From Escherichia coli (GTDB taxonomy: Bacteria > Pseudomonadota > Gammaproteobacteria > Enterobacterales > Enterobacteriaceae): a stretch of DNA of 64,000 bases. The notes under the pieces are model-generated. The model searched no databases. It saw only the letters and a program-made list of their open reading frames with translations, and was not told the origin of the DNA. The position numbers and the translations under genes were made by a program. Below, piece by piece: positions 3,160-3,292 of this stretch (position 1 is the stretch's first letter; the number at the start of each line of letters is the position of its first letter). The stretch lies in the NCBI RefSeq assembly GCF_003790525.1, contig NZ_CP033635.1. One strand, 5' to 3'.

Positions 3160-3190
3160 GATGCTCTCCCAAATATGAAATCTCTTGCAG

Positions 3191-3210
3191 GCATTACAAG
3201 AATCATGCCA
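3191..3210 (-). promoter_or_regulatory. candidate sigma-54 (-24/-12) promoter of pspG
   Basis: Minus-strand sequence TGGCATGATTCTTGTAATGC matches the TGGCAC-N5-TTGCA class (GG and TTGT elements correctly spaced) about 35 bp upstream of the pspG ATG; psp genes are known to be sigma-54/PspF dependent. Confidence 0.5.
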
Positions 3211-3292
3211 AAAATAATCTATTGATTTAACAGCAAAACGCCCCGCGACGGTGCGCAGGGCGTGGTGAATTTGACTACTTTTTGGTGAAAAG

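What the first reader, a model, noticed from the sequence alone, without database searches (positions are those of the whole stretch)
3160..3292. Sigma-54-type promoter upstream of pspG
A TGGCA-N7-TTGTA element with -24/-12 spacing lies about 35 bp upstream of the pspG ATG, and the AT-rich DNA further upstream could hold IHF and PspF sites. This matches what is known for psp promoters.
Basis: partly seen in the sequence, partly recalled or inferred. Interest (0 to 1): 0.25.

Follow-up and report, generated by a model that had tools for sequence, protein, structure and literature searches.

The report
Known sigma-54 promoter of pspG

Summary
The window is E. coli chromosome, reversed relative to K-12. 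pspG lies at 2917..3159 (-) and dusA ends at 3293. The motif exists: TTGGCATGATTCTTGTA at 3211..3195 (-), 35 nt before the pspG ATG. It is the top sigma-54 matrix hit in the whole 64 kb. It is the same 17-mer as the K-12 sigma-54 ChIP-seq site OS40, marked experimentally confirmed, and it is kept upstream of pspG in all 80 orthologous loci examined.

Three more conserved elements lie upstream:
- An exact IHF core, AATCAATAGATTA, at 3227..3215.
- The dusA intrinsic terminator hairpin at 3263..3238, where 8 of 10 pairs covary.
- A 31-bp block at 3291..3261 starting two bases after the dusA stop. Its matrix, built without Escherichia sequences, picks out the PspF-bound pspA enhancer in K-12.

The mechanism is PspF bound about 80 bp upstream, DNA bent by IHF, and the closed sigma-54 complex activated, with +1 predicted near 3184. 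The published PspF and IHF footprints at pspG could not be read here, so the exact extent of those sites is inferred.

Verdict: already known, low interest. Minor curiosities are the conserved non-consensus T at -12 and the terminator inside the enhancer-promoter loop.

The parts
3195..3211 (-). Sigma-54 core promoter TTGGCATGATTCTTGTA. The GG of the -24 element is at 3209-3208. The -12 element is TTGT, with GT at 3197-3196 where the consensus has GC.
   Evidence: top matrix hit of the window. Identical to K-12 and to ChIP-seq site OS40. Present in 80 of 80 orthologous loci. Mean column identity 0.91.
3184..3184 (-). Predicted transcription start (G), which gives a 25-nt leader.
   Evidence: Placed 19 nt downstream of the motif centre at 3203, the convention of PMC4591121. 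That paper reports the same 25-nt distance to the pspG start. This is a prediction; the start was not mapped here.
3164..3170 (-). Shine-Dalgarno-like GGGAGAG ahead of the ATG at 3159.
   Evidence: Read from the sequence. GGGAGAG or GGGAGA is kept in most orthologous leaders.
3215..3227 (-). IHF core consensus AATCAATAGATTA (WATCAANNNNTTR), at about -43 to -31.
   Evidence: Exact match, one of only 5 in 64 kb. A relaxed form of the core lies 3-5 bp upstream of the 17-mer in 61 of 76 Enterobacteriaceae-type sequences (75 loci plus the window) and 13-14 bp upstream in the 5 distant taxa. The columns CA...TTA are invariant or nearly so.
3238..3263 (-). dusA intrinsic terminator: a 10-bp stem (ACGCCCTGCG / CGCGGGGCGT) with a 6-nt loop, followed by TTTGCTGTT. 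It lies between the enhancer and the IHF site, at about -79 to -54.
   Evidence: Terminator scan. RNA fold of -19.1 kcal/mol. Across 75 sequences 96.4% of cells are paired, 8 of 10 pairs have compensatory changes and 0 of 500 shuffles reach the covariation score.
3261..3291 (-). Enhancer (PspF UAS-type block) TTTTCACCAAAAAGTAGTCAAATTCACCACG, at about -107 to -77. It has three half-site-like elements: TTCACCA (3289-3283), GTAGTCAA (3278-3271, inverted) and TTCACCA (3269-3263).
   Evidence: Mean column identity 0.86, as high as the dusA coding end. A matrix from 68 non-Escherichia orthologues scores 46.1 here and at most -2.5 elsewhere in the window. In the K-12 pspF-pspA locus its two best hits fall on the known pspA UAS region (13.3 and 5.7; the random 3-kb maximum is 8.2). 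The literature reports one PspF UAS at pspG.
2917..3159 (-). pspG coding sequence (80 aa), the gene this promoter drives.
3293..4336 (-). dusA, the upstream gene. Its stop codon lies 2 nt before the enhancer, and its terminator sits inside the pspG regulatory region. The ORF listing start at 4336 is a TTG three codons upstream of the ATG at 4327 that RefSeq uses (1038-nt CDS).

Best explanation
The region 3160-3292 (- strand) is the complete regulatory region of pspG in E. coli. It is an enhancer-dependent sigma-54 promoter. RNA polymerase with sigma-54 sits as a closed complex on TTGGCATGATTCTTGTA (3211-3195). The enhancer-binding protein PspF binds the conserved block at 3291-3261, about 80 bp upstream. 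IHF bound at AATCAATAGATTA (3227-3215) bends the intervening DNA so that PspF touches sigma-54 and uses ATP to open the promoter. Transcription starts near 3184 and yields a 25-nt leader, pspG and its 3' UTR. Under non-stress conditions PspA holds PspF inactive; membrane stress releases it. The dusA terminator hairpin (3263-3238) lies in the looped DNA and insulates pspG from dusA read-through. Shown here: every sequence element, its position, conservation and spacing, and its match to the pspA enhancer. Taken from the literature: sigma-54 occupancy, PspF binding and PspF-dependent induction. Inferred: the exact PspF half-sites, IHF occupancy at this particular site, and +1 at 3184.
For: - Motif and position.
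- The region differs from the K-12 pspG upstream region at one base (T versus A at 3189, about -5).
- Published sigma-54 ChIP-seq peak on this 17-mer, flagged confirmed, and pspG up-regulated when sigma-54 is overexpressed.
- RpoN holoenzyme SELEX peak in the dusA-pspG spacer.
- PspF binds the pspG UAS; pspG is induced 20-fold and has one UAS.
- Salmonella pspG has a ChIP-enriched site TGGCATGATTTTTGTA.
- Of 80 orthologous loci, 79 from Escherichia to Yersinia and Brenneria have a YTGGCAYG-N4-TTGNW element as their best sigma-54 hit upstream of pspG; one (Citrobacter werkmanii) carries a degraded TTGTCA form.
- The exact IHF core abuts -24 and is conserved.
- The enhancer matrix built from other genera finds the pspA UAS in K-12.
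- The enhancer-to-promoter distance is 80-82 bp in 76 sequences (75 loci plus the window), 88-90 bp in 3 loci and 102 bp in 2 loci. These steps are close to whole helical turns, as expected for face-of-helix looping.
- No sigma-70-like promoter is found on the - strand between dusA and pspG.
Against: None of substance.
- The motif score alone is not decisive with the 134-site matrix, where 0.73 equal or better sites are expected per random 64 kb.
- The -12 element is non-consensus (GT instead of GC).
- I could not read Lloyd et al. 2004 (JBC 279:55707) or Green and Darwin 2004. The published footprint limits and the mapped start were therefore not compared base by base.
- The literature describes one UAS at pspG, whereas I see three half-site-like elements, so my parsing of half-sites is tentative.
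- In 15 of 76 Enterobacteriaceae-type sequences the relaxed IHF pattern fails by one or more bases.
Confidence: 0.96

Rival explanations
1. pspG is expressed mainly by read-through from the sigma-70 promoter of dusA, and the sigma-54-like motif is a bound but unproductive site, like many sigma-54 sites in E. coli.
For: dusA and pspG are on the same strand, only 133 bp apart. Most of the 135 ChIP-seq sigma-54 sites in E. coli are not known to give transcripts. In Salmonella the DctD250 bEBP microarray changed pspG only 1.4-fold.
Against: A strong, covarying intrinsic terminator separates dusA from the promoter. pspG is one of only five genes with intergenic sites that went up on sigma-54 overexpression, and its regulation by PspF is documented. 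The enhancer and IHF site are conserved at a fixed helical phase, which an unproductive site would not need.
Confidence: 0.02
2. The motif is a chance match in an intergenic region and has no function.
For: With the broad 134-site matrix, a random 64-kb sequence has 0.73 sites scoring at least as well. A looser consensus, TGGCAY-N5-TTGYW, is expected 0.39 times per window.
Against: It is the best hit in the window and lies 35 nt before a known sigma-54-dependent gene. It is kept in 80 of 80 loci over large evolutionary distances while the flanking spacers vary. It is occupied by sigma-54 in vivo in K-12.
Confidence: 0.01

Closest known systems
E. coli K-12 pspG promoter (PpspG; Lloyd et al. 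2004, J Biol Chem 279:55707; EcoCyc pspGp; ChIP-seq site OS40 of PMC4591121)
   Same: It is the same locus. 170 of 171 bases are identical from the dusA end to the pspG start. The 17-mer, IHF core, terminator and enhancer block are all identical, and the predicted leader is the same 25 nt.
   Different: There is one substitution, T in the window against A in K-12, at 3189 (about -5, between -12 and +1). No effect is known for it.
E. coli pspA promoter (PpspA, the pspF-pspA divergent region)
   Same: The core promoter is the same type: TTGGCACGCAAATTGTA against TTGGCATGATTCTTGTA, with an identical TTGGCA and the unusual TTGTA at -12. An IHF-like core lies just upstream of -24 (AATCAAAAAGATA, read). 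The enhancer has the TTCRCYA / GTWAGTS / TTCRCYA layout, and the pspG-derived matrix recognises it.
   Different: - The pspA enhancer lies about 13 bp further from +1, by my reading.
- It is described as two UASs against one at pspG, with 100-fold against 20-fold induction.
- It overlaps the divergent sigma-70 pspF promoter, so PspF autoregulates there.
- At pspG the enhancer instead abuts the dusA stop codon, and a terminator hairpin occupies the loop.
Generic IHF-assisted sigma-54 promoters with a bacterial enhancer-binding protein (for example nifH, glnHp2)
   Same: The order of elements is the same: enhancer about 80-110 bp upstream, an IHF bend in between, GG at -24 and a -12 element. There is no -35/-10 promoter.
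   Different: - The IHF core sits unusually close to -24, with a 3-bp gap.
- The -12 element has T instead of C.
- The activator, PspF, has no regulatory receiver domain and is controlled in trans by PspA (established knowledge).

Membership tests
Sigma-54 (RpoN) -24/-12 promoter | GG and GC (TGGCAC-N5-TTGCW) exactly one helical turn apart | tested here: met
   The element is TTGGCAT-GATTC-TTGTA, with GG at 3209-3208 and the correct N5/N6 spacing. The -12 dinucleotide is GT rather than GC. This variant is seen in 4 of 135 bound sites, including pspA. Matrix score 17.4, at the 68th percentile of 41 real intergenic sites.
Sigma-54 (RpoN) -24/-12 promoter | Occupied by the sigma-54 holoenzyme | not testable with these tools
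   From the literature for the identical K-12 sequence: ChIP-seq FAT 15 and a gSELEX peak.
Sigma-54 (RpoN) -24/-12 promoter | Transcription start about 12 nt downstream of the -12 element | not testable with these tools
   Predicted +1 is 3184, 25 nt from the ATG, the same figure as in PMC4591121. The primer-extension data of Lloyd et al. 2004 could not be read.
PspF regulon promoter (psp enhancer) | PspF-binding upstream activating sequence about 80-120 bp upstream | tested here: met
   There is a conserved 31-bp block at 3291-3261. The matrix from non-Escherichia pspG orthologues hits the experimentally defined pspA UAS region in K-12 on both strands, above all 200 random controls. Binding itself is taken from the literature.
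PspF regulon promoter (psp enhancer) | IHF site between the enhancer and the core promoter | tested here: met
   Exact WATCAANNNNTTR at 3227-3215, conserved in position. IHF occupancy at pspG was not verified from a readable source.
PspF regulon promoter (psp enhancer) | The downstream gene is a psp gene | tested here: met
   The 80-aa product matches PF09583 Phageshock_PspG at 2e-25. RefSeq calls it pspG in identical genomes.
Rho-independent terminator (dusA) | GC-rich hairpin followed by a U-tract, with the pairing maintained in evolution | tested here: met
   10-bp stem, -19.1 kcal/mol, tail TTTGCTGTT. 8 of 10 pairs covary and 96.4% of cells are paired. The U-tract is short and interrupted in E. 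coli.

The most novel reading that the evidence does not exclude
The T at the normally invariant C of the -12 element (TTGTA) is under selection. It is kept in 75 of 80 pspG orthologues and in pspA, but occurs in only 4 of 135 sigma-54-bound sites in E. coli. This could be a signature specific to the PspF regulon. It might tune the fork-junction lock of the closed complex, setting basal leakiness or how readily PspF is shared between the two psp promoters. Separately, the dusA terminator and dusA read-through across the enhancer might modulate PspF occupancy. Neither idea is excluded by my data, and neither was tested.
Probability: 0.2. Interest if true: 0.35.

Novelty: already known. Interest (0 to 1): 0.08.

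Why it matters
The finding confirms that a reader working from sequence alone can recognise a sigma-54 promoter and its partners. It adds no new biology. PpspG is one of the two promoters of the PspF regulon, has been characterised since 2004, and is used as a model template for sigma-54 biochemistry. The comparative detail gathered here could help anyone designing promoter mutants or synthetic PspF-responsive promoters. That detail covers the enhancer abutting the dusA stop, the covarying terminator inside the loop, spacing that changes in steps near a helical turn, and the conserved non-consensus -12 T.

Tried and rejected
The spacing was corrected to N6.
- I tried to read Lloyd et al. 2004 (pmid 15485810) and Green and Darwin 2004 (PMC451634) for footprint and primer-extension coordinates. 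Neither is held.
- Searches for "pspG promoter" with UAS and IHF, and for pspG with "primer extension" and PspF, gave no further base-level description.
- An Rfam scan of 2600-3500 found only two sub-threshold ctRNA hits on the bidirectional terminator at 2748-2791, so no RNA family lies in the promoter region.
- The sigma-70 promoter scan found nothing on the - strand between dusA and pspG, so a dual sigma-70/sigma-54 promoter was not pursued.
- I considered treating the GC-rich inverted repeat as a protein-binding palindrome. I rejected this because the pairs covary while the sequence changes, which points to RNA structure.
- PMC4551910 was checked for bypass transcription at psp promoters in relation to the -12 T. 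It has nothing specific to pspG.

Full report
**Identity of the locus.** The 501 bases around the finding are 100% identical to several complete E. coli chromosomes (IAI39, CE10, SMS-3-5). They are present in 5,425 of 5,426 E. coli genomes, where RefSeq annotates dusA and pspG under the match. The window runs opposite to K-12.
- dnaB lies at 270..1685 (-) and qorA at about 1660..2751 (+).
- pspG lies at 2917..3159 (-).
- dusA lies at 3293..4336 (-) as listed by the ORF listing, which starts at a TTG. RefSeq starts it three codons later at the ATG (1038-nt CDS).
- The 80-aa product of 2917..3159 matches Pfam PF09583 (PspG) at E=2e-25.

**The observation.** On the - strand the sequence reads ...AATCAATAGATTATTT-TTGGCATGATTCTTGTA-ATGCCTGCAAGAGATTTCATATTTGGGAGAGCATC-ATG.
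- The spacer count was wrong. TGGCA-N7-TTGTA has no match and TGGCA-N6-TTGTA has one. N6 is the canonical arrangement, TGGCAC-N5-TTGC.
- The exact pattern is expected 0.08 times per shuffled window. A looser consensus is expected 0.39 times.

I built position weight matrices from the 135 sigma-54 ChIP-seq motifs of Bonocora et al. 2015 (PMC4591121), leaving pspG out, and scanned all 64 kb on both strands.
- The site is the best hit with both matrices.
- With the matrix of 41 intergenic sites it scores 17.4, against 12.4 for the runner-up. That is the 68th percentile of real sites, and 0.13 equal hits are expected per random 64 kb.
- With the 134-site matrix it scores 15.2, and 0.73 are expected by chance.

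The score alone is therefore suggestive. Position and conservation make it decisive.

**Already known.** The region from the dusA end to the pspG start differs from K-12 MG1655 at one base out of 171 (T instead of A at 3189, about -5).
- Bonocora et al. list exactly TTGGCATGATTCTTGTA as site OS40. It has FAT 15, lies upstream of b4050 pspG with a predicted start 25 nt from the gene, and is flagged as experimentally confirmed in EcoCyc. pspG was also one of five genes with intergenic sites that rose on sigma-54 overexpression.
- Shimada et al. 2021 found RpoN holoenzyme binding in the dusA-pspG spacer by genomic SELEX.
- Mehta et al. 2013 state that PspF binds the UASs of the pspA and pspG promoters, and that pspG has one UAS and is induced 20-fold.
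- PMC4641871 used the pspG promoter as an in vitro template. It notes that pspA and pspG share identical -24 and -12 elements and the same start nucleotide.
- In Salmonella the homologous site TGGCATGATTTTTGTA is ChIP-enriched.

The original description (Lloyd et al. 2004) and the Yersinia paper (Green and Darwin 2004) are not held in the library. I could not compare footprint limits or primer-extension data directly.

**Comparative anatomy.** A genome scan with PspG returned 80 loci from Escherichia, Citrobacter, Salmonella, Enterobacter, Klebsiella, Raoultella, Kluyvera, Leclercia, Yersinia, Rahnella, Brenneria and others. In every one, the best sigma-54 matrix hit within 260 bp upstream of pspG is a YTGGCAYG-N4-TTGNW element. 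Citrobacter werkmanii carries a degraded TTGTCA form.

In Enterobacteriaceae the element lies 34-46 nt from the ATG. It lies further away where the leader has picked up insertions. I recognise these by eye, not by test, as a REP-like insert in Salmonella and an ERIC-like insert in Yersinia.

An alignment of 75 sequences shows four conserved blocks separated by variable spacers.

1. **The sigma-54 17-mer.** Mean column identity is 0.91.

2. **An IHF core.** AATCAATAGATTA at 3227..3215 is an exact match to WATCAANNNNTTR, one of only five in 64 kb. It ends 3 bp before the 17-mer. A relaxed form is found at a 3-5 bp gap in 61 of 76 Enterobacteriaceae-type sequences (75 loci plus the window) and at 13-14 bp in all five distant taxa.

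3. **A hairpin at 3263..3238.** It has a 10-bp stem and a 6-nt loop, folds at -19.1 kcal/mol, and is called terminator-like by the scan.
   - Its sequence changes between genera but its pairing does not.
   - 96.4% of cells are paired and 8 of 10 pairs have compensatory changes.
   - 0 of 500 shuffles reach the covariation score, and slid controls give 37-60% pairing.
   - The loop has identity 0.51 against 0.84-0.85 for the arms.
   - This is the dusA intrinsic terminator.

4. **A 31-bp block at 3291..3261.** TTTTCACCAAAAAGTAGTCAAATTCACCACG begins two bases after the dusA stop. Its identity of 0.86 is as high as that of the dusA coding end.

**Is block 4 the PspF enhancer?** I built a matrix of this block from the 68 non-Escherichia sequences only.
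- In the window it scores 46.1 at 3261..3291 and at most -2.5 anywhere else.
- In the 3-kb K-12 pspF-pspA locus its two best hits (13.3 on one strand, 5.7 on the other) both fall at 1411-1449. That is the region between pspF and the pspA core promoter where the PspF UASs lie.
- 200 random 3-kb sequences never exceeded 8.2.

By eye both enhancers have the layout TTCRCYA - GTWAGTS (inverted) - TTCRCYA, with the two direct copies 20 bp apart. pspA has a further inverted copy upstream, which may correspond to the 'two UAS versus one UAS' description. That parsing is my inference.

With +1 at 3184, the pspG enhancer spans about -107 to -77, the terminator -79 to -54 and the IHF core -43 to -31. In pspA the corresponding enhancer elements lie about 13 bp further upstream, and an IHF-like core (AATCAAAAAGATA) sits at about -45 to -33 (read).

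**Spacing.** The distance from the start of the enhancer block to the start of the 17-mer falls into three groups:
- 80-82 bp in 76 sequences (75 loci plus the window);
- 88-90 bp in Biostraticola and the two Brenneria;
- 102 bp in Yersinia and Rahnella.

The IHF core moves by about 10 bp in the same taxa. The steps, about +9 and +21 bp, are near one and two helical turns. That fits activation by DNA looping, where the activator must face the polymerase. Only five distant taxa carry this signal, so it is suggestive rather than proven.

**Mechanism.** The best explanation is the textbook one for this promoter.
- Sigma-54 holoenzyme forms a closed complex on 3211-3195.
- PspF bound at 3291-3261 is brought to it by an IHF bend at 3227-3215 and remodels it with ATP.
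- Transcription starts near 3184, and the Shine-Dalgarno-like GGGAGAG at 3170-3164 serves the ATG at 3159.
- PspA represses PspF until membrane stress relieves it.
- No sigma-70-type promoter is seen on this strand in the spacer.
- The terminator argues against dusA read-through as the main source of pspG mRNA.

**Small points that are not in the readable literature.**
- The base at the consensus C of the -12 GC is T in 75 of 80 pspG orthologues (C in one). It is also T in pspA of E. coli and Salmonella. Only 4 of 135 sigma-54-bound sites in E. coli have T there. A single transition would improve the consensus, and its absence suggests the non-consensus base is selected. What it does is unknown to me.
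- The enhancer lies in the dusA 3' untranslated region, upstream of the dusA terminator. Every dusA transcript therefore crosses the PspF site, and the terminator DNA forms part of the activation loop. This layout is conserved wherever dusA precedes pspG.

**Verdict.** The feature is the well-known PpspG promoter, so novelty is 'already known' and interest is low.

Noticed in passing
window 2750..2860 (-): The 3' UTR of pspG carries the sRNA PspH, annotated in K-12 as b4758. The 186-nt stretch aligned across it (2740..2925) differs from K-12 at 2 bases. According to Melamed et al. 2016 (PMC5145812), PspH is an Hfq-dependent sponge of the sRNA Spf and may also have its own promoter. It lies downstream of pspG in the same orientation, so transcripts from the sigma-54 promoter could extend into it.
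   Followed up: partly
window 2759..2781 (both strands): A perfect 9-bp-stem hairpin (AGGGCTTCC...GGAAGCCCT) with T-runs on both sides lies between the convergent pspG/PspH and qorA. It looks like a bidirectional terminator. It gives weak sub-threshold Rfam ctRNA hits only.
   Followed up: partly
window 3238..3263 (-): The dusA intrinsic terminator sits between the PspF enhancer and the IHF site of pspG, so dusA transcription crosses the enhancer. Pairing covaries across 75 genomes. Whether this arrangement affects pspG regulation is unknown.
   Followed up: yes
window 3196 (-) and L003-L082: The consensus C of the -12 element is T in 75 of 80 pspG orthologues and in pspA, but in only 4 of 135 sigma-54-bound sites of E. 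coli. A conserved non-consensus base suggests functional tuning.
   Followed up: partly
window 4692..5696 (-): An AT-rich 334-aa ORF lies between zur and dusA and is annotated as a DUF2713 family protein in IAI39. From memory, not checked here, K-12 has two shorter genes (yjbL, yjbM) at this position, so this strain may carry the intact form.
   Followed up: no
L077 (Yersinia vastinensis) about 1311-1500; L017 and L029 (Salmonella) about 1432-1500: The pspG leader is lengthened by insertions between the sigma-54 promoter and the ATG. In Yersinia the insert is about 150 nt and resembles an ERIC/IRU repeat. In Salmonella arizonae and diarizonae it is about 30 nt and resembles a REP-like GC-rich palindrome. 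Both were recognised by eye only.
   Followed up: no
window 50734..50750 (+) and 16687..16703 (+): These are the next-best sigma-54 matrix hits with the 134-site matrix: CTGGCACCGAGTTTGCC (14.1) and CCGGCCCAGGTTTTGCT (13.2). The first lies inside a 439-aa ORF on the opposite strand. They could be intragenic sigma-54 sites of the kind Bonocora et al. describe, or chance matches.
   Followed up: no
window 3189 (-): This is the only difference from K-12 in the whole pspG regulatory region: T here and A in K-12, at about -5 inside the region melted in the open complex.
   Followed up: no
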